A stretch of 64,000 nt of DNA, from the IMG/VR virus record IMGVR_UViG_3300025288_000016, positions 431 to 64,430 of that record; one strand, written 5' to 3'. Positions 2,541 through 30,635 of the stretch are shown here, one piece after another. The DNA is from a virus. Its lineage: Duplodnaviria; Heunggongvirae; Uroviricota; Caudoviricetes; Crassvirales. Below the pieces are notes generated by a model. It had not been told where the DNA came from. It made no database searches and was given only the letters and a program-made list of their open reading frames with translations. A program made the translations under genes and the position numbers. Each line of letters opens with the position of its first letter. Within the stretch, counting starts at the first letter, position 1.

Positions 2541-3542
2541 TTATACTACTGCTAGGTTAGCTGGTACATTACCAGAACCTAAGATAGTACGTAAATCTAC
2601 TAGAACATTATTAGTATTAACATTACTAGCTAAGTTAGTTTTTACAACTAAAATAGTAAGAACTTTTGGTTGTTCTTCTACAGTAGGAGAAATTCTAGAC
2701 TCTTTATATTTAATATGAATTGCATTATATGTACTTCCAGAAGAAGCATAGAAAGGAGTTCTTTCTGTAAAATCTGCTGGATAACCATATTGTCTATAAA
2801 CATCATATTTATATCCTTTAGTAAACCATTCTAAATTTACAGCATACTTACCTGTTCCAGTTCCTGGAAAGTTTTCATTATTTACAACTACAGTAATAGC
2901 GTTAGTATTAACATGTGAAGTACCAGCTACATCAAAACTTTTACCTTGTACATCAAATTCAATTTGACGACCTGTAATTTTACCAGCTACAACTGCTTGA
3001 GCAGCACCAGTAATATCAATAGCATTTGTACTATTAGCAGCTACTACAAATTCACTACCGCCACGTTTTGTTAAGTTATAATTTAAAGAAGTTATTAACC
3101 CATCTCTAATTGCTTGAACAGTTCCAGCACTAGCACCTGTGGTATAACTACCAGTAATTGTTACAAAATTTTCTGGAGATAATGAACCTCCATCATTATA
3201 TAATCTGATATTTACTAAATAAGCTGTATTTGCAGATGCAGAACCTACTGTAGCAGTTACAGATTTATTAACCTCTGCACTATACTCTTTTAAGATTACC
3301 TTTTCTACTTTATCAGCTTTTATAATATCTGAAAATTCATAATTAAGTCCCTTAGAGGAACTACCTGCATTCTTTTGATAAACTTTAAAGTTTTCACCAC
3401 TGGCAGGAGCACTACCATCAGCTGATAGTACTTTGATTTCTTGGTCTGAAGCAGAAGCTATGAAAGTAGCTAATGTAGTTTCTGATGCTACAGCATTACC
3501 TATAATTAGTTCTTCTACTTGGTTTGGTCCAAATACACTCAT
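2541..3542 (-). CDS. virion structural protein (possible major tail or decoration protein)
   Basis: 333 aa, Ser/Thr/Gly/Ala/Val-rich beta-type composition. Lies downstream of the capsid gene. Confidence 0.45.
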   Translation of the reverse strand: MSVFGPNQVEELIIGNAVASETTLATFIASASDQEIKVLSADGSAPASGENFKVYQKNAGSSSKGLNYEFSDIIKADKVEKVILKEYSAEVNKSVTATVGSASANTAYLVNIRLYNDGGSLSPENFVTITGSYTTGASAGTVQAIRDGLITSLNYNLTKRGGSEFVVAANSTNAIDITGAAQAVVAGKITGRQIEFDVQGKSFDVAGTSHVNTNAITVVVNNENFPGTGTGKYAVNLEWFTKGYKYDVYRQYGYPADFTERTPFYASSGSTYNAIHIKYKESRISPTVEEQPKVLTILVVKTNLASNVNTNNVLVDLRTILGSGNVPANLAVV

Positions 3543-3562
3543 TGTATAAAATTAATTGTTAT

Positions 3563-4306
3563 TTATTCGTTTCTATTATTTATTTGAGTTTTTACTGCTA
3601 AATCTTGTGGATTATAATCTGCAGTGGCTAACTCGACAGCTCTATTTAAAATTTCTATATGAACACTTTCATTAAGTTTACAAGTTTGTTCTAATGAAAC
3701 ACCATTAATTGTTAATGTTTCAGATGGAAAAGCAGTTAATAAATTAGTTAAAATTATTGGTTCTGGAAAAAGAACATATCTCATTTTATATTCACTTAAA
3801 TTATAAGGAGATATTAATTCAACATTCTTATTATTTCCTGTTTGAGAATAATAATCCAATCTCCATATTAAATCTTTATCTGGTTTTTTGAATGGATTAT
3901 CTTCTTGTATATTAAATTCATCATGTGTTATTGGTTTTATTTTTACATAAGTTCCATTATTACATGAATTAACATCATTTATTAAAGCTTTTTCTTGTAT
4001 TATAATAAAAGTATTATTAGGTATTCTAAAAAATATAGAATTATCTGATATAGAATCATTTGATGTTACTACAGTTATACTTTTATAATTTCTGATTAAT
4101 TGACTTAAATCATTACGTCTTTTACTAGATTGCTCAAAACCTTTTTGATATTTATTACCTTTTGGTTCAAAATAATTTTTAACTATTTCTAGTTGAGCTT
4201 TTGTTAGATATACAGATTTTTCATATAAATCTATTGACGGAGCATTATTAGTAGCTATACTATTATAAAAAATATCAAATTGATTACTAAATTCAGCTGT
4301 AGTCAT
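3563..4306 (-). CDS. hypothetical protein (structural module)
   Basis: 247-aa ORF; no recognisable motif. Confidence 0.45.
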   Translation of the reverse strand: MTTAEFSNQFDIFYNSIATNNAPSIDLYEKSVYLTKAQLEIVKNYFEPKGNKYQKGFEQSSKRRNDLSQLIRNYKSITVVTSNDSISDNSIFFRIPNNTFIIIQEKALINDVNSCNNGTYVKIKPITHDEFNIQEDNPFKKPDKDLIWRLDYYSQTGNNKNVELISPYNLSEYKMRYVLFPEPIILTNLLTAFPSETLTINGVSLEQTCKLNESVHIEILNRAVELATADYNPQDLAVKTQINNRNE

Positions 4307-4308
4307 TA

Positions 4309-5166
4309 TTAAATAGCGTTATCTATTTTTGCTTCTATTAAGTCTCTAACATCTTGATGTTTAGGATTGTCTAAATACTTAACAGCATTATCAATTGTAG
4401 CCACTGAACCATTTTCACATAAGTCCAAACCATCTACTGTTGCATATTTATTACCATTTCTTTTAATAATACCAGTTTCAATTCCTTTATTAATTAAAGC
4501 TCTAGTTTCAAAACTTTCATCTTGAATAACTGATAAAAATTTACTAGGTGTTTTATCAACATATTCTTCAACTAAACCTTGAACCCATTTTAAAGTAGAT
4601 TGTGAACTAATTGGTTTATTAGTTAATAGTTTTAATATAGATATTAATTTATCTTTATTATCTTCTATTTTACCATATAATTTAAAAGCTTCTTTTTTAA
4701 CATCAAGTTTAGCTTTGTTATCATCAGTTACTTCTCCTGGTCTGGTTATTACAAATTGGTAAGTTGGTTTATTATCTCTTTCTACCCAAGAATGTGCAAT
4801 GTCATCTTCATATTTTTCTAATACTTTTAATGAAATATAACCCATTGGTGTACTTAAATCAAAAACATTACTTGCATCATCTTTACGAAGTTTAACTTTA
4901 AAAGTTTCCCAAAATTTACCATATACTGATAAATCTATTCCTGTTTCTTCTTCTAAAGTTTCTTTTTCTGCTTTAGTTAGAGCATTTACTAATCCTCCAC
5001 CTCTAATTTTTCTAGGTAACACAAATCCTCTTACAGAATTTGTTAACATACCTCCTGATATAACATGGTTGTCTCCAACATTAGCTGCCATACCTTTTTT
5101 TCTTGGAATAAATCTTACCGTAACTATTTCATTTGGTAAGACAAATTTTTTTTCTTCAATTGCCAT
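4309..5166 (-). CDS. hypothetical protein (structural module)
   Basis: 285-aa ORF immediately downstream of the putative major capsid protein (MCP). GGGAGA lies upstream of the start. Confidence 0.45.
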   Translation of the reverse strand: MAIEEKKFVLPNEIVTVRFIPRKKGMAANVGDNHVISGGMLTNSVRGFVLPRKIRGGGLVNALTKAEKETLEEETGIDLSVYGKFWETFKVKLRKDDASNVFDLSTPMGYISLKVLEKYEDDIAHSWVERDNKPTYQFVITRPGEVTDDNKAKLDVKKEAFKLYGKIEDNKDKLISILKLLTNKPISSQSTLKWVQGLVEEYVDKTPSKFLSVIQDESFETRALINKGIETGIIKRNGNKYATVDGLDLCENGSVATIDNAVKYLDNPKHQDVRDLIEAKIDNAI

Positions 5167-20767: not shown

Positions 20768-21229
20768 TCATAATATATGTAATTGTTGCATTAATTTTTT
20801 AAGCTCTGATTTATTTTTAAGATTTCCTAGAAACATATCAAACTTAGCATCTATTTTTCCTTCTCTTGAATACCAACCTTCTATTCTAATACTAAATAAA
20901 TCGGGATTATTTGGACTAAACCATAATCTATAATTAAATTCTTTCTTAAATTTATAATTAAATTCTTTTGATATATCATTATAAATCCAACCTAAACTTT
21001 CAATATCTTCTTTATCTAGGTATTTAACTCTTATACTATCTCCTCCACTATATACGCAAGCTAATCTATTCGTTATATCCTCATTCCAAATATTATCTTT
21101 ATCTACAAATTGAAATATCTCTTTACTATATTTTTCTGGAGTATATGCTGAATTTACCCATCTTTCATATTCAAAACCTTGATAAAACTCTTCTATAGAA
21201 GGTGTATAATATTTATTGTTCATCTTCAT
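20768..21229 (-). CDS. hypothetical protein, paralogue of 18350-18778
   Basis: See 18350-18778. The DNA 3' ends are also near-identical over ~35 bp. Confidence 0.5.
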   Translation of the reverse strand: MKMNNKYYTPSIEEFYQGFEYERWVNSAYTPEKYSKEIFQFVDKDNIWNEDITNRLACVYSGGDSIRVKYLDKEDIESLGWIYNDISKEFNYKFKKEFNYRLWFSPNNPDLFSIRIEGWYSREGKIDAKFDMFLGNLKNKSELKKLMQQLHIL

Positions 21230-21678
21230 CCACTATTAAATAACTAGATTTACCTGTCTTAATATACTCTCTCATAGCTTTAGTATGAATATATTCTAAT
21301 TCTGCATCTGTAGTATCATCTGTTATTATTATCTTCTTAATTCTTTTAATTATCATATATTTCTTTCTTTTGGTACTTTTCTTTCTTTGTTAATAACATT
21401 GCAAAGGTACGAAATATTTTTGACATATGCAAGTTTTTTATTAATTATTTTTTATAACCATTCATAATATTCATAATGTAATATTTTTTTACATTCAGGA
21501 CAAGCTAAATTAGTTTCTATATAATTACAAAATTTTTTTAAATTTTTTTTAAATTTTTTTATTGTTAATGTGAGAGTGACTTAATCTAAGCATCACCCCC
21601 TACTCTTTTTTAATTTTGCGATGTACCCCTACTTAATTGTAAGGAAGTCCTAATATAAACAGTAAAAACAAGAAAAAA

Positions 21679-22128
21679 ATGAACACATTAAGAATTGAAA
21701 CAGTATCCTACAAGGGAGTAGAGCAAAAACAACTAATTGGAACTTGTAAATTAGCAAGTAAACTTAGTGAAAAAGAAATTGAGTACACCAATGCTAAAGG
21801 CGAGGTTAAAACTTATAGAATAGCCAACGTTAAAGGACAGTTACCTAATGGTAAAGTAATTGACATTACAGCAAGTGTACCACAGCGTAACCAAGAGCTT
21901 ATGGAAGAGAATGGTAGTGAGTTCACAGTAGGCGAGAGCTACTTAACCACTATAACAGCTCAACCTGATAAGAATGACCCAACAAAGCTTATCTTCTTTG
22001 CAAGAATGTCACACTTAACTAATGCAGGTACAGACAATGTAGCATTAGCAGAGGCATTTGGTGCAGAGTTTGGTATTGTTGATAATCCTGTAGTTAAAAC
22101 AGGTAAAGAAATAGAGGTAGAGGCATAG
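21679..22128 (+). CDS. hypothetical protein encoded in a compositionally atypical (GC-richer) segment
   Basis: 149-aa ORF with clearly higher G+C codon usage than all neighbours. Followed by a strong terminator. Confidence 0.5.
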   Translation: MNTLRIETVSYKGVEQKQLIGTCKLASKLSEKEIEYTNAKGEVKTYRIANVKGQLPNGKVIDITASVPQRNQELMEENGSEFTVGESYLTTITAQPDKNDPTKLIFFARMSHLTNAGTDNVALAEAFGAEFGIVDNPVVKTGKEIEVEA

Positions 22129-22136
22129 CAACTATT

Positions 22137-22160
22137 GAGGGTGTAACAGCCCTCTTTTAG
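22137..22160 (+). terminator. Rho-independent terminator
   Basis: GAGGG-tgtaacag-CCCTC followed by TTTT. Confidence 0.6.
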
Positions 22161-22959
22161 TTTCCTATAAATCTATTATCACAAATTTAAATCTATTATC
22201 ACAAACATAGGTTTTAAGTCTATTTAACTCTCTCTCACTTAGGTTAAAGTTTTAAATAGTTTAATTAGTGTTGTTAATTGGTTAAATTTAGTTAGTAGTA
22301 GGAGTGATATGTTTAATATCTATCTAGTTTTGAACTAGTTACAGTTTGTTTGTGGACTGATGTGAGCATGGTAATAAACCAATATCACTCTTTTACTCAA
22401 TTCAATAACAATAAAATCTATCAAATTAATTAATAATATAACTAAAACCACCAGTTTCTTTGATAAAGATAGAGTAAAACAAAAATGAGTTCTCAGCAAA
22501 TAATTAGATAGTAATGGGTAACCATTCAACCTGAAACGGCAATCAATTATATGACCCTACTCTTATTAAGCGACCAGACCTGCCTATAATTCTGGTGTGG
22601 GGTGTTAATAGGTAATAAGAAAGAGGGTGCTAATAAACAATGATAATGTTAGTTAATCGTTGTGTTTAGTTAAATCTAAACTTTATAGCTAACGGATAGG
22701 TTGAAATTCCTTGTAGTTGTAAGAAGTAAGAAAAGTCTAATTCTTTATAGTAACAGTCAAGCACTAATAAAAGACTAATGATGCAATGAGTTACTATACT
22801 TACAACTATTAAAATACTATCAATAGACAAACCTTCACGAGGTGATAGTGTTTAAACTAATTGTCTAATTAAAACTAAAAATATGATGGCTTTAGAAAAA
22901 CAAGTACGCAACATGAAAATAAAACTAAGAAAGTTTAATTACATTTTAAAAGAATTATT

Positions 22960-23643
22960 ATGAAACTACAAATAATTGAAACACAAGATTACATATTAAC
23001 TGTTTCAGATGAAGAGATTAAGCATAAAAATATCATATTGCACATACCTAGCAATTGTATTTTAGACGCTGATGAGTTTTATGAAATGAACGGAAATACT
23101 ACTATTCTATTTAACGATTTAAACAAACGTGAAGTTTTAGCTAAAGATTGCAAAAAAATAATAGCCTACCAAACAAAGAACAATGCACCTGAATTAAATG
23201 GATTACCATTGCTTCCAGAAATAGTTGTTGAAGATGATGTTGAGAACTTAGCTAAATTAAAATATCCAATAAATTCCGCTAAAGGTTCAATGGAAATGTT
23301 AAATAGAGACCAATTAAACAACTCTTTAAAACAAGAGGGATTTATTGAAGGTTATAAAGCAGCAACTAAAGTTTATAGTGAAGAGGATGTAATTGACTTT
23401 TCTATTTTTAGAACAACTACAAATACTAAAGAATTTCATAATTGTAAAAATGTTTATGAACAATTTAATCTTTGGAAATCTCTCAAACAATCTAAAACAC
23501 CTAAATGGTTTGTTGCTGAAATAGATTGTGATGAAGTTAGACAATGTATGTGTGAAACTAATGATGATTGTTTAAAACCAAAACTAAAAACCACAACAAT
23601 TAATGGTAAAACTTATTTAGCAGGAACTTACTTATACGAATAA
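22960..23643 (+). CDS. hypothetical protein
   Basis: 227-aa ORF. Confidence 0.45.
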   Translation: MKLQIIETQDYILTVSDEEIKHKNIILHIPSNCILDADEFYEMNGNTTILFNDLNKREVLAKDCKKIIAYQTKNNAPELNGLPLLPEIVVEDDVENLAKLKYPINSAKGSMEMLNRDQLNNSLKQEGFIEGYKAATKVYSEEDVIDFSIFRTTTNTKEFHNCKNVYEQFNLWKSLKQSKTPKWFVAEIDCDEVRQCMCETNDDCLKPKLKTTTINGKTYLAGTYLYE

Positions 23644-23645
23644 TT

Positions 23646-24509
23646 ATGAAAAATATACATGTATTACCAACAGATAAACCAAGTAGAATTTATAATATTT
23701 TAGGAAGTAAAAAAATTGGATTTACTTCAAATGACCCATTTTATACTGAAAATTGTGGTGGTGGTACTAAAAACCAAAACATCTACATCACTTCTGATAA
23801 AGAAATTAGTGGCTTTGAAAACAATATTTGGGTTATTAAAGGAGATAGAATTTTTTTATGGCAAAATACAATGGCATTAGTTTCTAATAATAAACCAAGA
23901 AAAATTATTTTGACTACAGACCAAGACTTAATCAATGATGGTGTACAAGAAATTAATTATGAGTTTTTAGAATGGTTTGTTAATAATCCAGGTTTTGAAA
24001 AGATTGAAGTTATAAAAACACATTTATGTACTCAAACTGGATTACCTTGTGGTATGCAATGTTTAAATGAAGAAACGTGTAATGAAAATATAACTTACAA
24101 AATCATAATTCCAAAAAAAGAACCTAAATGTTTATATGATACTCCAAGATCCTGTGAAAATAGTGAATGTCGAGTTTTAAACAAATGTAATGGAGATAGA
24201 GTTAAATCTAAACAAGAAACACTTGAAGAAGCTAAAATAAAGATTTATAAAGATTATTGGAATTTTGAACATACCCAATGGATAAAATCTAGTTTTTTTA
24301 ATGGTTTTGAAGCAGGTGCTAAATGGCAAGCTGAAAAAATGTATAGTGAGGAAGGTTTAAAAAATGCTTTTGATTCTGCAAGAGAGTTTAACTCTTTAGA
24401 TGGTGTAGTAGATGTACATATAGTATTATCTATGGGTGGCGATGTGTCAGACTTACAACCTTTATATTTTACATTTGAAGAATGGTTTGAACAATTTAAA
24501 AAGAAATAG
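23646..24509 (+). CDS. hypothetical protein
   Basis: 287-aa ORF, Cys-rich middle region. Confidence 0.45.
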   Translation: MKNIHVLPTDKPSRIYNILGSKKIGFTSNDPFYTENCGGGTKNQNIYITSDKEISGFENNIWVIKGDRIFLWQNTMALVSNNKPRKIILTTDQDLINDGVQEINYEFLEWFVNNPGFEKIEVIKTHLCTQTGLPCGMQCLNEETCNENITYKIIIPKKEPKCLYDTPRSCENSECRVLNKCNGDRVKSKQETLEEAKIKIYKDYWNFEHTQWIKSSFFNGFEAGAKWQAEKMYSEEGLKNAFDSAREFNSLDGVVDVHIVLSMGGDVSDLQPLYFTFEEWFEQFKKK

Positions 24510-28425: not shown

Positions 28426-28543
28426 GGGGGAGTAGCTCAGTTGGTAGAGCACTTAAAACTCTATTCTGTATAAGAATAGATACAGCAAAATAACTATGCA
28501 ATTTGAATGCAATGGTCATAGGTTCGATTCCTATACTCCCCCC
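28426..28543 (+). ncRNA. tRNA-like structured RNA, non-canonical (~118 nt): acceptor, D-arm and T-arm present, with ~66 nt in place of a normal anticodon arm. Candidate Y-RNA/YrlA-like RNA.
   Basis: GGGGGAG-TA-GCTC-AGTTGGTA-GAGC 5' end and ATAGG-TTCGATT-CCTAT-(A)-CTCCCCC 3' end. The interior contains an 8-bp hairpin TCTATTCT/AGAATAGA and no U33/anticodon loop. Confidence 0.55.
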
Positions 28544-29159: not shown

Positions 29160-30635
29160 ATGAAAAAAAACACAATTAACAGACCAGGACAAAAACCTGT
29201 ACAACAATCACTTTTAGTAAATGCTGTAAGAAAAGAAAAAAAAGTATATACTAATAATGGTGCTAGAACAAATGCTACATCATTATATAAAGTATTAGAT
29301 TTATTTTTTATTGCTGGTGCATCACGTAATATGAATGATAAAAAAATCATTGAAATGTTTGATGCAGCATTAGCAGAAAATACTTTATTAGCATTAAAAT
29401 GTATATTTTGGGCTAGAGATATTAGAGGTGGTGCAGGTGAAAGAAGATTTTTTAGAATCTGTATGGAACATTTAAGAAAAGATTATAATGAAATTTATAA
29501 ATCTATGACTCAATATGTTCCTGAATATGGTCGTTGGGATGATTTATTTTTTTCAAATGCAACAGCTTTATCTAATTACAGAATGATTAGGACAAGTTTA
29601 AACAACAAAAATGGTTTATTAGCTAAATGGTTACCACGTAAAGGTAATATAGCTAAAATTATTAGAGATAAACTTGGATTATCACCTAGAATATATAGAA
29701 AAACTATTGTTAGATTATCACAAACAGTTGAACAACAAATGTGTGCTAAACAATGGAAACATATTAATTATTCTGGTGTACCATCTGTAGCTATTAATAA
29801 ATATAGAAAAGCTTTTTATCGTAATGATGAAGCTAGATTTACTCAATTTATAACATCTGTTACAAAAGGTACTAAAAAAATTAATGCTAAAGCTATATTT
29901 CCACATACACTTGTTAGAGCAATTTATCAAGGGGAAAATGAAAGAGCAGTTGAAGCACAATGGATGAATTTACCTAATTACATGGAAGGTTCAAAAGATA
30001 GAATTTTACCTATTTGTGATACTTCAGGTAGTATGTCAATAAATAGTAATATTCCTATGGATGTGTCTATAGCACTAGGTATATATATTTCAGAAAGAAA
30101 TAAAGGTCCATTTAAAAATGCTTTTATGACATTTTCAGCTAAACCTGAAATGCATGTTACTAATGGTACATTATCTCAAAGATTAAATCAAATTAGAAAT
30201 GCTCCTGCTGGTTATAATACTAATTTGGTAGCTTGTTTTAATCTTCTTTTAGAAACTGGTATTAAACATGATTTATCTAATAAAGATATGCCTACTAAAA
30301 TATTAGTTATTTCTGATATGGAATTTGATGGTACAGCAAGTAGTTATTATGTTAGTGCTAGAGAACAAGCCAAATCTTCTAGAGAATTTTTAAGTAATTA
30401 TGAAATTATTAAAAGAAATTATACAAACTCTGGTTATAATATGCCAAGTATTGTATTTTGGAATGTAAATGGTAGAGCTGAAAATGTACCTGCTACAAAA
30501 GATGATAGAGTAGGTTTAGTATCTGGATTTAGTCCTGCAATATTAACATCAATATTATCAGGTAAAATTTATAGTCCATCTCAATTAATGTTAAGAACTA
30601 TAGATTCTGATAGATATAGACAAATAAAATTATAA
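29160..30635 (+). CDS. von Willebrand factor A (MIDAS) domain protein with alpha-helical N-terminal domain; Ro60/TROVE-like or DUF2828-like architecture
   Basis: MIDAS motif DTSGSM at aa 287-292 begins a C-terminal vWA domain. A ~280-aa helical N-domain with ARDIRGGAGERRFF precedes it. 491 aa in total. Confidence 0.5.
   Translation: MKKNTINRPGQKPVQQSLLVNAVRKEKKVYTNNGARTNATSLYKVLDLFFIAGASRNMNDKKIIEMFDAALAENTLLALKCIFWARDIRGGAGERRFFRICMEHLRKDYNEIYKSMTQYVPEYGRWDDLFFSNATALSNYRMIRTSLNNKNGLLAKWLPRKGNIAKIIRDKLGLSPRIYRKTIVRLSQTVEQQMCAKQWKHINYSGVPSVAINKYRKAFYRNDEARFTQFITSVTKGTKKINAKAIFPHTLVRAIYQGENERAVEAQWMNLPNYMEGSKDRILPICDTSGSMSINSNIPMDVSIALGIYISERNKGPFKNAFMTFSAKPEMHVTNGTLSQRLNQIRNAPAGYNTNLVACFNLLLETGIKHDLSNKDMPTKILVISDMEFDGTASSYYVSAREQAKSSREFLSNYEIIKRNYTNSGYNMPSIVFWNVNGRAENVPATKDDRVGLVSGFSPAILTSILSGKIYSPSQLMLRTIDSDRYRQIKL

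What the first reader, a model, noticed from the sequence alone, without database searches (positions are those of the whole stretch)
22160..22960. 800-bp non-coding, GC-enriched region with iteron-like direct repeats and a candidate terminated small RNA
No ORF of 60 aa or more on the gene strand for ~800 bp. The region contains a tandem AATCTATTATCACAAA x2 (22170-22205). A candidate structured RNA has GGAGTGATAT (22301-10) pairing with ATATCACTC (22381-89) followed by TTTTAC, with an internal CTAGTT-ttga-AACTAG hairpin. A TATAAT-containing segment lies at 22583. It sits at the start of the early (plus) block next to the strand switch. It could be an origin of replication, an early-promoter cluster or an sRNA locus.
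Basis: seen in the sequence. Interest (0 to 1): 0.5.

Follow-up and report, generated by a model that had tools for sequence, protein, structure and literature searches.

The report
Large structured phage RNA gene
The 800 gene-free bases mostly encode a large folded non-coding RNA from a widespread, unnamed family of phage RNAs, which is abundantly made by a related laboratory phage and often sits beside transfer-RNA and tmRNA genes, but whose job is unknown.

Summary
The window comes from a crAss-like phage whose capsid protein is 61% identical to that of Cellulophaga phage phi14:2.

Three things lie between a probable SSB gene (21679-22128) and the next gene (22960):
- the SSB terminator
- an exact tandem repeat with a 20-nt period
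- a structured RNA locus of about 430-640 nt (22240/22440-22866, + strand)

The RNA's core (22484-22633) carries sequence blocks that are identical in more than 100 uncultivated viral contigs and in phi14:2. A covariance model built without the window hits only this site (56 bits, E about 3e-11).

The family structure shows strong covariation. In 75 distinct sequences, 92% of cells are paired against 74% in shuffles, and 44 of 47 pairs have compensatory changes.

The family is absent from Rfam 15. Only 5 contigs in 185,579 species genomes carry it, all in MAGs of inconsistent taxonomy. Among GenBank phages only phi14:2 has it.

In phi14:2 the element lies in the intergenic region published as an abundant, persistent "long non-coding RNA" of unknown function. 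Family members often directly adjoin phage tRNA and tmRNA genes.

An origin of replication or a promoter cluster is not supported. The function remains inferred.

The parts
21679..22128 (+). Upstream gene A (149 aa). A probable phage single-stranded-DNA-binding protein (OB fold with a disordered acidic tail). It is context, not part of the RNA.
   Evidence: No Pfam or PHROG hit. AF2 model has pLDDT 66.8. All top 50 Foldseek PDB matches are SSB, PriB or RPA OB folds, best E 4e-3. Homologs at 60-80% identity were found.
22137..22159 (+). Intrinsic terminator of gene A (GAGGGTGTAACAGCCCTC followed by TTTT).
   Evidence: It is the only terminator-like site in 21000-23400. It is conserved, with a changed stem sequence, in L014, L157, L159 and L018.
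22168..22205 (.). Exact tandem repeat, 2 x TAAATCTATTATCACAAA with a 20-nt period. A conserved DNA element of unknown role (candidate protein-binding site or promoter element).
   Evidence: TRF score 76. Unique in the window. TAAATCTATTATCA x2 is nearly invariant directly after the gene A terminator in five lineages whose gene A is only 60-80% identical.
22240..22472 (+). Probable 5' part of the RNA. CUUUGA (22458-63) is followed by UAAAGAUAG (22464-72), which resembles the family junction CAUAAAGAUAC.
   Evidence: Folds. L014 has a homologous long hairpin with changed stem sequence. Assigning this stretch to the RNA is inference. The model's 5' domain is not matched here.
22484..22498 (+). 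Conserved junction block B2, AAUGAGUUCUCAGCA.
   Evidence: Exact match to the family block. The block stays conserved in members found through an independent anchor.
22500..22550 (+). Helix P7 (AUAAUU 22500-05 pairs with AAUUAU 22545-50), enclosing a variable hairpin.
   Evidence: The window has compensatory changes relative to the family's GUAGUUA/UAACUAC. The helix covaries across the family.
22555..22633 (+). Helix P8: CCCUACUCUUAUUA pairs with UAAUAAGAAAGAGGGU, with a conserved AC/AAG internal loop and a variable apical hairpin that contains the 'TATAAT'. It is followed by the tail GCUAA.
   Evidence: Exact pattern match shared with 18 IMG/VR contigs, including phi14:2. CM alignment.
22438..22636 (+). 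Extent of the covariance-model match (family core).
   Evidence: R1 gives 56.2 bits, E 2.9e-11, and it is the only real hit in 64 kb on both strands. It ranks 55th of 77 hits when searched together with member loci.
22698..22864 (+). 3' extension shared with phi14:2 and L069. It comprises AGGUUGAAAUUCC (22698-710), a long hairpin (22713-22808), a terminal hairpin (22812-50) and UUUAAACUAAUUGU (22851-64).
   Evidence: including compensatory changes in the terminal hairpin. Folds (z -2.8).
22883..22963 (+). 26-codon ORF whose stop overlaps the start of gene B (ATGA). It is either a real short gene or noise, and it bounds the RNA on the 3' side.
   Evidence: No conservation was tested.

Best explanation
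Most of the gene-free stretch is a gene for a large, highly structured non-coding RNA read from the + strand. It runs from 22240 at the earliest, and certainly from 22440, to about 22866.

It is a divergent member of a widespread phage-specific RNA family that is absent from Rfam. That family's member in Cellulophaga phage phi14:2 is the abundant, persistently present intergenic transcript reported there.

What is shown:
- Sequence and structure homology of the window's core to the family (junction B2, helices P7 and P8, the GCUAA tail and a 3' extension shared with phi14:2).
- Strong covariation of the family structure.
- Restriction of the family to viral contigs.
- Frequent direct adjacency of family members to phage tRNA and tmRNA genes.

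What is inferred:
- The RNA is transcribed early, downstream of the SSB terminator, and folds into a compact multi-helix core held by conserved junctions. A loop-to-junction pseudoknot is possible.
- It accumulates as a stable trans-acting RNA and acts on a conserved host component, most likely of the translation or tRNA/tmRNA apparatus. Binding or sequestration, or an RNA-only assembly as in GOLLD and ROOL, are the likeliest modes.
- The tandem repeat upstream is a separate conserved DNA element tied to the end of the SSB gene. It may be a regulator-binding or promoter element.
For: Homology of the window copy:
- The pattern CCCTACTCTTATTA-N(30-60)-TAATAAGAAAGAGGGT from the window occurs exactly in 18 IMG/VR contigs, including phi14:2.
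- An independent 5' anchor gives 69 loci.
- Model R1, built from 22 other members, hits the window once, at 22438-22636, with 56.2 bits and E 2.9e-11. It gives 77 hits in 98 sources.
- The 3' extension is shared with phi14:2 and L069 and shows compensatory changes.

Covariation:
- 22 sequences: 93.8% of cells paired against 84.8% in shuffles, 24 pairs with changes on both sides against 12.9, 0 of 500 shuffles as high. Slid controls give 40-49% paired.
- 75 distinct sequences: 91.9% against 74.1%, and 44 of 47 pairs with changes on both sides. The covariation score is 0.282, against 0.03-0.05 in the slid controls.
- Many G-U pairs fix the strand as +.

Distribution and context:
- No Rfam family matches, even at E up to 10.
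- Only 5 contigs in 185,579 species genomes carry it, all in MAGs of inconsistent taxonomy.
- Among 50,697 GenBank phage records, only phi14:2 has it.
- The window's capsid protein is 61% identical to that of phi14:2.
- The phi14:2 copy (genome 3068-3362) lies in a 1.7-kb ORF-free stretch. That stretch was reported as transcribed rightward above most genes, early and not declining, with function 'to be determined' (bioRxiv 10.1101/2020.03.07.982082).
- A tmRNA gene lies downstream on the same strand: within about 25-150 nt in L027, L086, L134 and L147, and about 670-780 nt in phi14:2 and L061. tRNAs or tRNA 3' halves lie directly upstream in several loci.
Against: - There are no transcript data for this phage, and the RNA's 5' and 3' ends are unmapped.
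- The window copy lacks the family's canonical 5' domain: 63 model positions are replaced by 3 nt. It may therefore be a reduced or partly decayed member.
- Members were collected with exact-match anchors, so conservation of those anchor blocks is inflated.
- The seed alignment was spliced: variable arms were cut out. A9 was fitted to the model, and the model's E-values are rough.
- The pseudoknot rests on invariant bases plus one compensatory case.
- Nothing tested here shows what the RNA does. In this window it is not next to a tRNA or tmRNA gene; the nearest tRNA is about 8 kb away.
Confidence: 0.8

Rival explanations
1. Cis-acting leader or riboswitch-like element. The structured RNA would be the 5' untranslated region of the downstream genes (22883/22960 onward) and would control their translation or termination.
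For: - The most recurrent neighbours of family members lie downstream on the same strand. They are relatives of the window's genes at 23646-24509 (14 of 75 loci) and of a domain of 22960-23643 (9 of 75).
- The 3' strand of P8 (AAGAAAGAGGGUG) looks Shine-Dalgarno-like and is sequestered by pairing (read from the sequence).
- In some members an ATG follows within 10-30 nt.
Against: - The downstream element differs widely: tmRNA or tRNA genes in several loci, unrelated ORFs in others.
- In the window, phi14:2 and L069, about 230-260 nt of further conserved structured RNA separate P8 from the next ORF.
- The phi14:2 transcript stays abundant while other early mRNAs fall.
- Bacteroidota generally make little use of Shine-Dalgarno pairing (general knowledge).
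Confidence: 0.12
2. Origin of replication. The tandem repeat would act as iterons for an initiator, and the structured and repeated DNA nearby as the unwinding or priming zone. The transcript might be a structured primer RNA.
For: - The exact tandem repeat has a period of about two helical turns and is conserved in five lineages.
- Relatives carry other short tandem repeats just downstream: GTTATCTYR x4 in L157 and L159, and GATGATAGTAAT repeats in L018.
- The region lies next to the putative SSB gene and at the cumulative GC-skew minimum.
Against: - There are only two copies, and no AT-rich stretch. The region is GC-richer than the genome.
- The skew minimum coincides with the switch of coding strand at 21356/21679, so it is uninformative.
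- Abundant G-U pairs in the covarying helices point to RNA on one strand, not to DNA structure.
- The RNA family occurs in very different phages, often inside tRNA islands.
Confidence: 0.07
3. An independent small RNA of about 95 nt (22294-22397), ended by its own hairpin and T-run, and separate from the downstream large RNA.
For: - The hairpin is stable (z -3.0) and is followed by TTTT.
- Its flank GTTGTTAATTGGTTA and the 3' half of the hairpin are conserved in L014.
Against: - It is not scored as a terminator.
- In L014 the stem is followed by CATATAC, with no T-run.
- In both phages it is the apex of a much longer hairpin.
- Only two sequences are available, so covariation cannot be judged.
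- It sits where family members have a variable arm.
Confidence: 0.1
4. Decayed coding sequence or other functionless spacer.
For: The window copy has lost the family's 5' domain. The region is variable among relatives, and several contigs end inside it.
Against: - Blocks of 14-17 nt are identical across many unrelated viral contigs, and helices keep their pairing through compensatory changes.
- There is no ORF remnant in any frame or under stop-codon recoding.
Confidence: 0.02

Closest known systems
The 'long non-coding RNA' of the g004-g005 intergenic region of Cellulophaga phage phi14:2 (Drobysheva et al., bioRxiv 10.1101/2020.03.07.982082)
   Same: It is homologous. The core blocks are identical, helices P7 and P8 are the same, and the 3' extension is shared. 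The genomic position is syntenic, about 16-18 kb from the capsid gene at the start of the early block. The phages are related (capsid 61% identical).
   Different: phi14:2 has the complete 5' domain (H1, P2-P6), which the window copy lacks or has replaced by a long hairpin. phi14:2 has no tandem repeat upstream and has a tmRNA gene about 670 nt downstream. The paper reports only abundance and timing, with no structure, family or function.
GOLLD and ROOL RNAs (large ornate phage/prophage RNAs; Rfam; Kretsch et al. 2025, PMC12286853)
   Same: - All are large, multi-helix RNAs with pseudoknot potential and unknown function.
- All are encoded by phages, often beside tRNA islands.
- GOLLD also has a conserved 3' region and a variable 5' region, and one GOLLD was found downstream of tRNA-Met in a marine sample.
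- They are highly expressed where tested.
   Different: - No match to either Rfam model at any threshold tried.
- This family is shorter, about 300-450 nt for the core.
- GOLLD and ROOL also occur in prophages and bacterial genomes, whereas this family is almost absent from cellular genomes.
- Its only cultured carrier infects a flavobacterium (Cellulophaga).
- Oligomeric cage formation has not been tested for this family.
Phage-encoded tmRNA
   Same: It is a stable structured RNA of phages and is found directly next to this RNA in at least six loci, including phi14:2.
   Different: The window element has no tRNA-like domain or tag reading frame. ARAGORN and Rfam find no tmRNA in the window.
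Stable 'species 1 and 2' RNAs in the tRNA gene cluster of phage T4 (from my own knowledge, not checked here)
   Same: They are phage-encoded stable RNAs of unknown function, co-located and co-processed with phage tRNAs.
   Different: They are much smaller (about 120-140 nt), infect an unrelated host, and show no sequence relation.

Membership tests
Unnamed phage RNA family (model R1; includes the phi14:2 g004-g005 RNA) | Score against a covariance model built without the window | tested here: met
   56.2 bits, E 2.9e-11 in 64 kb, and E 4e-10 in 0.9 Mb. It is the only real hit in the window.
Unnamed phage RNA family (model R1; includes the phi14:2 g004-g005 RNA) | Conserved junction AAUGAGUUCUCAGCA followed by helix P7 | tested here: met
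   The block is exact at 22484-98. P7 is kept through compensatory changes: AUAAUU/AAUUAU in place of GUAGUU/AACUAC.
Unnamed phage RNA family (model R1; includes the phi14:2 g004-g005 RNA) | Helix P8 with the AC/AAG internal loop and the GCUAA tail | tested here: met
   Exact at 22555-68, 22613-28 and 22629-33.
Unnamed phage RNA family (model R1; includes the phi14:2 g004-g005 RNA) | 5' domain: hairpin H1 (loop UAAACAUUGAAU), P2, GNRA hairpin P3, P4 enclosing P5 (loop CUUGAGAAA) | tested here: not met
   Model positions 43-105 are deleted, and the rest of the 5' part is aligned poorly. Only remnants exist: AGGTTAAAG at 22241-49 and UAAAGAUAG at 22464-72. Some other members also score low for the same reason (for example L018, 39.5 bits). 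The window copy is therefore a reduced or divergent member.
Unnamed phage RNA family (model R1; includes the phi14:2 g004-g005 RNA) | Made as a discrete, stable RNA | not testable with these tools
   Only the phi14:2 RNA-seq statement is available.
GOLLD / ROOL (Rfam) | Match to the family covariance model | tested here: not met
   No hit at gathering score or at E up to 10, in the window or in six canonical members.
GOLLD / ROOL (Rfam) | Phage-encoded, near tRNA islands | tested here: inconclusive
   This holds for many family members, but the window copy is about 8 kb from the nearest tRNA.
Iteron-type replication origin | An array of several (usually at least 3-4) direct repeats plus an adjacent AT-rich unwinding element | tested here: not met
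   There are two copies only. The region is GC-richer than the genome.
Iteron-type replication origin | GC-skew inflection that coding-strand bias does not explain | tested here: inconclusive
   The cumulative skew minimum at about 21-22 kb coincides with the strand switch at 21356/21679.
Rho-independent-terminated small RNA | A GC-rich terminal hairpin followed by a conserved U-run | tested here: not met
   It is not detected by the terminator scan. The T-run is absent in the L014 homolog.
Sigma-70-type promoter cluster | Two hexamers with proper spacing on the gene strand | tested here: not met
   There is no + strand site within 22160-22960. The count for the whole stretch scanned (21000-23400) is below the shuffle expectation, 10 against 14.1. 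The scan does not cover Bacteroidota-type or phage-polymerase promoters.
tmRNA / tRNA | A tRNA-like domain detected by ARAGORN or Rfam | tested here: not met
   None is found in 21200-23200.

The most novel reading that the evidence does not exclude
This would be a new class of large, ornate phage RNA. It would be specific to virulent aquatic phages (the only cultured carrier infects a flavobacterium), including crAss-like ones, and functionally coupled to the tRNA/tmRNA (trans-translation) machinery. It might be a ribozyme, a decoy for a host translation or defence factor, or a self-assembling RNA-only particle in the manner of GOLLD and ROOL. The window would carry a minimal version that defines the essential 3' core.
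Probability: 0.35. Interest if true: 0.85.

Novelty: new variant of a known kind. Interest (0 to 1): 0.7.

Why it matters
- It gives a structure, a family and more than 100 relatives to an abundant RNA that the phi14:2 study reported but left unexplained. phi14:2 is the experimental model for crAss-like phages.
- It shows that the second such phi14:2 RNA is a tmRNA.
- Large, intricately folded RNAs with conserved junctions are rare, and most that were followed up turned out to be ribozymes, riboswitches or unusual assemblies.
- This family has a culturable host-phage system, a natural "minimal" variant in this window, and a recurrent link to tRNA and tmRNA genes. Its function is therefore directly testable.
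- For annotation, the 0.8-1.7-kb "gene deserts" at the start of the early block of these phages should be read as RNA genes. They should not be filled with small hypothetical ORFs; RefSeq has already removed 11 such ORFs from phi14:2.

Tried and rejected
- Hidden gene under stop-codon recoding, as seen in some crAss-like phages: rejected, because TAA stops occur in all six frames.
- DNA similarity of the region to GenBank phages: no match for the window region. Only phi14:2 matches, and only with a canonical member as query.
- Relatives through gene B (22960-23643): only a shared domain in non-syntenic loci. Through gene A in IMG/VR: none.
- Contigs carrying the identical gene A (L008-L013) are 99.9-100% identical over the region, so they are useless for covariation.
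- Sliding-window folding z-scores alone were unremarkable, at best about -2.3. The signal came from comparative data.
- The tandem-repeat pattern was absent from IMG/VR. In the metagenome collection it gave 103 hits, but these are heterogeneous: AT-rich micro-satellite arrays, a repeat inside a coding sequence, and an unrelated recurrent element. This was a dead end, and it spent the single metagenome scan.
- Neighbouring proteins have no informative Pfam or PHROG annotation.
- Resemblances recalled from memory to RNase P RNA, group I intron core elements, T-box, K-turn and hammerhead were considered. None is supported by Rfam scans, and none is claimed.
- Five literature searches found no description of the family. 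No supplementary tables of the phi14:2 paper are held.
Full report
**Observation**

- No + strand ORF of 60 aa or more lies between 22128 and 22960. Gene callers on identical public contigs leave the same 831-nt gap empty.
- The tandem repeat is 2 x TAAATCTATTATCACAAA at 22168-85 and 22188-205. TRF gives period 20, 100% identity, score 76. The motif is unique in the window.
- The hairpin GGAGTGATAT...ATATCACTC plus TTTTAC folds at -30.4 kcal/mol, z -3.0.
- GC enrichment is modest, 0.27-0.34 against about 0.24. The local GC peak is the upstream gene.
- Reading through TAG or TGA does not open a frame.

**Context**

The window is a crAss-like phage.
- The major head protein, portal and large terminase lie on the minus strand at 5-13 kb.
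- The head protein is 60.9% identical to g091 of Cellulophaga phage phi14:2, the closest cultured relative.
- An identical contig is 99.9 kb long.
- The coding strand switches at 21356/21679.
- The first + strand gene (21679-22128, 149 aa) has no family hit. It is predicted as an OB fold with a disordered acidic tail. All 50 best PDB matches are SSB, PriB or RPA, but the scores are weak (E 4e-3, pLDDT 67). I treat it as a probable SSB.
- Its terminator (22137-54) is the only terminator-like site in the 2.4 kb scanned (21000-23400).

**What the region is**

Homologs of gene A led to contigs of relatives. Sensitive blastn showed islands of conservation inside the "empty" region.

One island (22545-22635) consists of two complementary blocks flanking a variable insert. 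A search of IMG/VR for CCCTACTCTTATTA-N(30-60)-TAATAAGAAAGAGGGT gave 18 exact matches, one of them phi14:2. Of the 111 hits, 84 carry further family blocks. A 5' anchor that shares nothing with these gave 69 loci, about 38 of them new.

Full-length members share this architecture:
- hairpin H1, with conserved 12-nt loop UAAACAUUGAAU
- helix P2 around a variable arm
- junction CAUAAAGAUAC
- GNRA hairpin P3
- helix P4, enclosing hairpin P5 (conserved loop CUUGAGAAA) and a variable hairpin
- junction AAAUGAGUUCUCAGCAA
- helix P7 around a variable arm
- GUGA
- helix P8, with a conserved AC/AAG internal loop and a variable tip
- tail UGCUAA

**Structure is conserved, not just sequence**

| Alignment | Cells paired | Shuffled | Pairs changed on both sides | Slid controls |
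|---|---|---|---|---|
| 22 full-length members, variable arms cut out to keep register (A6) | 93.8% | 84.8% | 24 observed, 12.9 in shuffles | 40-49% paired |
| 75 distinct sequences aligned to the model (A9) | 91.9% | 74.1% | 44 of 47 pairs | covariation score 0.03-0.05 |

In A6, no shuffle out of 500 reached the observed values. In A9 the covariation score is 0.282.

The highest mutual-information column pairs are the proposed base pairs. P4 switches wholesale between GUGUUG/CAACAC and CGUGAG/CUCACG. Frequent G-U pairs fix the RNA strand as the + strand of the window.

A pseudoknot between the P5 loop (UUGAGAA) and UUCUCAG in the junction is possible. It rests on invariant bases, one compensatory case and several wobble-compatible changes, with a few exceptions.

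Caveats:
- Members were found with exact anchors.
- A6 is spliced, and A9 is fitted to the model.
- The model's E-values are rough.

**The window's copy**

Model R1, built without the window, hits it once, at 22438-22636, with 56.2 bits and E 2.9e-11.
- The junction block is exact (22484-98).
- P7 is kept through compensatory changes (22500-05 with 22545-50).
- P8 and the tail are exact (22555-22633).
- The canonical 5' domain is missing: 63 model positions are replaced by 3 nt.

Upstream there are only remnants, AGGTTAAAG at 22241-49 and UAAAGAUAG at 22464-72.

Relative L014 has a homologous long hairpin with different stem sequence and no T-run after it. I therefore read the hairpin as a lineage-specific arm of the large RNA, in the position where other members have the variable P2 arm. 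This is inference from two sequences.

Downstream of P8, the window shares a 3' extension with phi14:2 and L069. It comprises AGGUUGAAAUUCC (22698-710), a long hairpin (22713-22808), a terminal hairpin (22812-50) with compensatory changes, and UUUAAACUAAUUGU (22851-64). A 26-codon ORF (22883-963) and gene B follow.

**Experimental anchor**

In phi14:2 the core lies at genome 3068-3362. That falls inside a 1.7-kb stretch (2904-4602) from which RefSeq curators removed all small ORFs.

[quoted passage not shown] They are present from the earliest time point and, unlike other early transcripts, do not decline. [quoted passage not shown]

The first region contains this RNA. The second (genome 4031-4502) is a tmRNA. 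Rfam gives 46.0 bits against a gathering score of 47, E 2e-15. ARAGORN predicts a tag peptide GSSVQKLAMVA.

**Distribution and neighbours**
- No Rfam 15 family matches the window region or canonical members, even at E up to 10.
- In one genome for each of 185,579 bacterial and archaeal species, a specific two-block pattern occurs five times. All five are in MAG contigs of mutually inconsistent taxonomy, which are probably mis-binned phage contigs.
- Among 50,697 GenBank phage records, only phi14:2 has it.
- Carrier contigs range from 4 to 373 kb, so the RNA is not confined to crAss-like phages.
- A tmRNA gene lies downstream on the same strand. It is within about 25-150 nt in L027, L086, L134 and L147, and about 670-780 nt away in phi14:2 and L061.
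- tRNA genes or tRNA 3' halves end about 10 nt upstream in L036, L071, L116 and L150. Some copies sit inside tRNA arrays.
- The most recurrent protein neighbours are relatives of the window's own downstream genes (14 and 9 of 75 loci). They have no annotation.

**The tandem repeat**

The terminator hairpin plus TAAATCTATTATCA x2, at 19-20-nt spacing, is nearly invariant directly after gene A in five lineages. These are the window, L014/15, L157/158, L159 and L018-21. Their gene A proteins are only 60-80% identical, and their downstream sequences differ.

In L018 the RNA core lies 1.8 kb further on. The repeat therefore belongs with the end of gene A rather than with the RNA.

Such conservation indicates a functional DNA (or transcript) element. 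A binding site for a dimeric or tandem-binding regulator, or part of a non-canonical promoter, are the obvious options. Neither could be tested.

The repeat is absent upstream of the phi14:2 RNA. The core motif alone is too simple to trace in metagenomes.

**Rival readings**
- Origin of replication. There are two repeats only and no AT-rich element. The skew minimum cannot be separated from the strand switch. The RNA-type covariation argues for a transcript. I give this about 0.07.
- Promoter cluster. There is no + strand consensus site. The TATAAT lies in the tip of P8.
- Independent terminated sRNA. About 0.1, for the reasons given above.
- Cis-regulatory leader. About 0.12. The Shine-Dalgarno-like 3' strand of P8 and the recurrent downstream genes are in favour. 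The varied downstream partners (tmRNA, tRNA, unrelated ORFs), the long conserved 3' extension and the persistence of the phi14:2 transcript are against.

**How it most likely works**

Shown: a conserved, covarying, phage-specific RNA structure, and abundant, persistent transcription of the homologous phi14:2 region.

Inferred: it is transcribed early and released as a stable RNA, co-processed with tRNAs or tmRNA where these are adjacent. It folds into a compact core whose invariant loops and junctions contact a conserved partner.

The same blocks are kept in unrelated phages, and cellular genomes lack the RNA. The partner is therefore more likely a host component than a phage protein. The tRNA/tmRNA neighbourhood points to the translation or RNA-processing apparatus.

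Binding or sequestration, or an RNA-only assembly as found for GOLLD and ROOL (which are likewise phage-borne and tRNA-adjacent), are the most plausible modes. Catalysis cannot be excluded. The window's copy, which keeps only the 3' core plus the extension, suggests that this part carries the essential activity.

**Verdict**

The finding is real and more interesting than proposed. It is a reduced member of an apparently undescribed, widespread family of large structured phage RNAs, preceded by a separately conserved tandem DNA motif.
- Confidence that the core is such an RNA gene: about 0.8.
- Confidence in any particular function: low.

Noticed in passing
window 28427-28542 (+), with ORF 29160-30635 (+): A tRNA-like RNA has a perfect acceptor stem, D arm and T arm, but its anticodon arm is replaced by a 57-nt two-hairpin insert. 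Rfam tRNA scores it 35.5 bits, ARAGORN does not call it, and its fold has z -3.9. It lies about 600 nt upstream of a 491-aa protein that PHROGs annotates as 'RNA-binding protein' (phrog_850, E 2e-139) and Pfam assigns DUF2828 + DUF7788. The pair looks like a Ro60-type protein with a YrlA-like Y RNA.
   Followed up: partly
L032 2893-3364 = Cellulophaga phage phi14:2 genome 4031-4502: The second 'long non-coding RNA' region of phi14:2 (g005-g006) is a tmRNA gene. Rfam gives 46.0 bits against a gathering score of 47, E 2e-15. ARAGORN predicts the tag peptide GSSVQKLAMVA. It is not annotated in the RefSeq record.
   Followed up: partly
L027 3463-3817, L086 1367-1698, L134 11670-12003, L147 5602-5927, L061 8755-9020: Phage tmRNA genes, some of them permuted, lie downstream of the new RNA on the same strand. 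They are within about 25-150 nt in L027, L086, L134 and L147, and about 780 nt away in L061. This is a recurrent two-RNA module.
   Followed up: partly
window 21679-22128 (+): The first gene of the + strand block is unusually GC-rich (0.36-0.40 against 0.24). It is predicted as an SSB-like OB fold with an acidic tail, and no family library recognises it.
   Followed up: partly
L018 4551-4632; L157 about 1075-1115: In relatives, the same intergenic zone after gene A contains a hammerhead-like core (CUGAUGAG...CGAAAC). L018 scores 33.1 bits against the RAGATH-1 hammerhead model, below the gathering score of 56.3 (E 0.034). L157 has CUGAAGA, a 5-bp stem II and GAAAC. The window has no counterpart.
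   Followed up: partly
L157 about 925-965, L159 about 765-805, L018 about 4275-4320: Just downstream of the conserved tandem motif, relatives carry different short tandem repeats: GTTATCTYR x3-4, and GATGATAGTAAT-type. Several contigs of relatives end inside this zone, which suggests a hypervariable or assembly-breaking stretch.
   Followed up: no
window 21597-21613, 21626-21642 and 22554-22570: The motif (C/A)CCCTACT occurs twice in the divergent intergenic region upstream of gene A and once as the 5' strand of P8. CCCTACTC has 2 matches against 0.28 expected. Its meaning is unknown.
   Followed up: no
L084 5769-6047 (-): A group I intron (Rfam 90.9 bits) lies in a contig that also carries the new RNA.
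   Followed up: no
L023 1-94 and 176-381; L025 3859-4004 and 4364-4578 (a third copy with exact blocks spans about 4175-4357); L111 3523-3797 and 4266-4457: Some phages carry two or three tandem copies of the RNA core.
   Followed up: no
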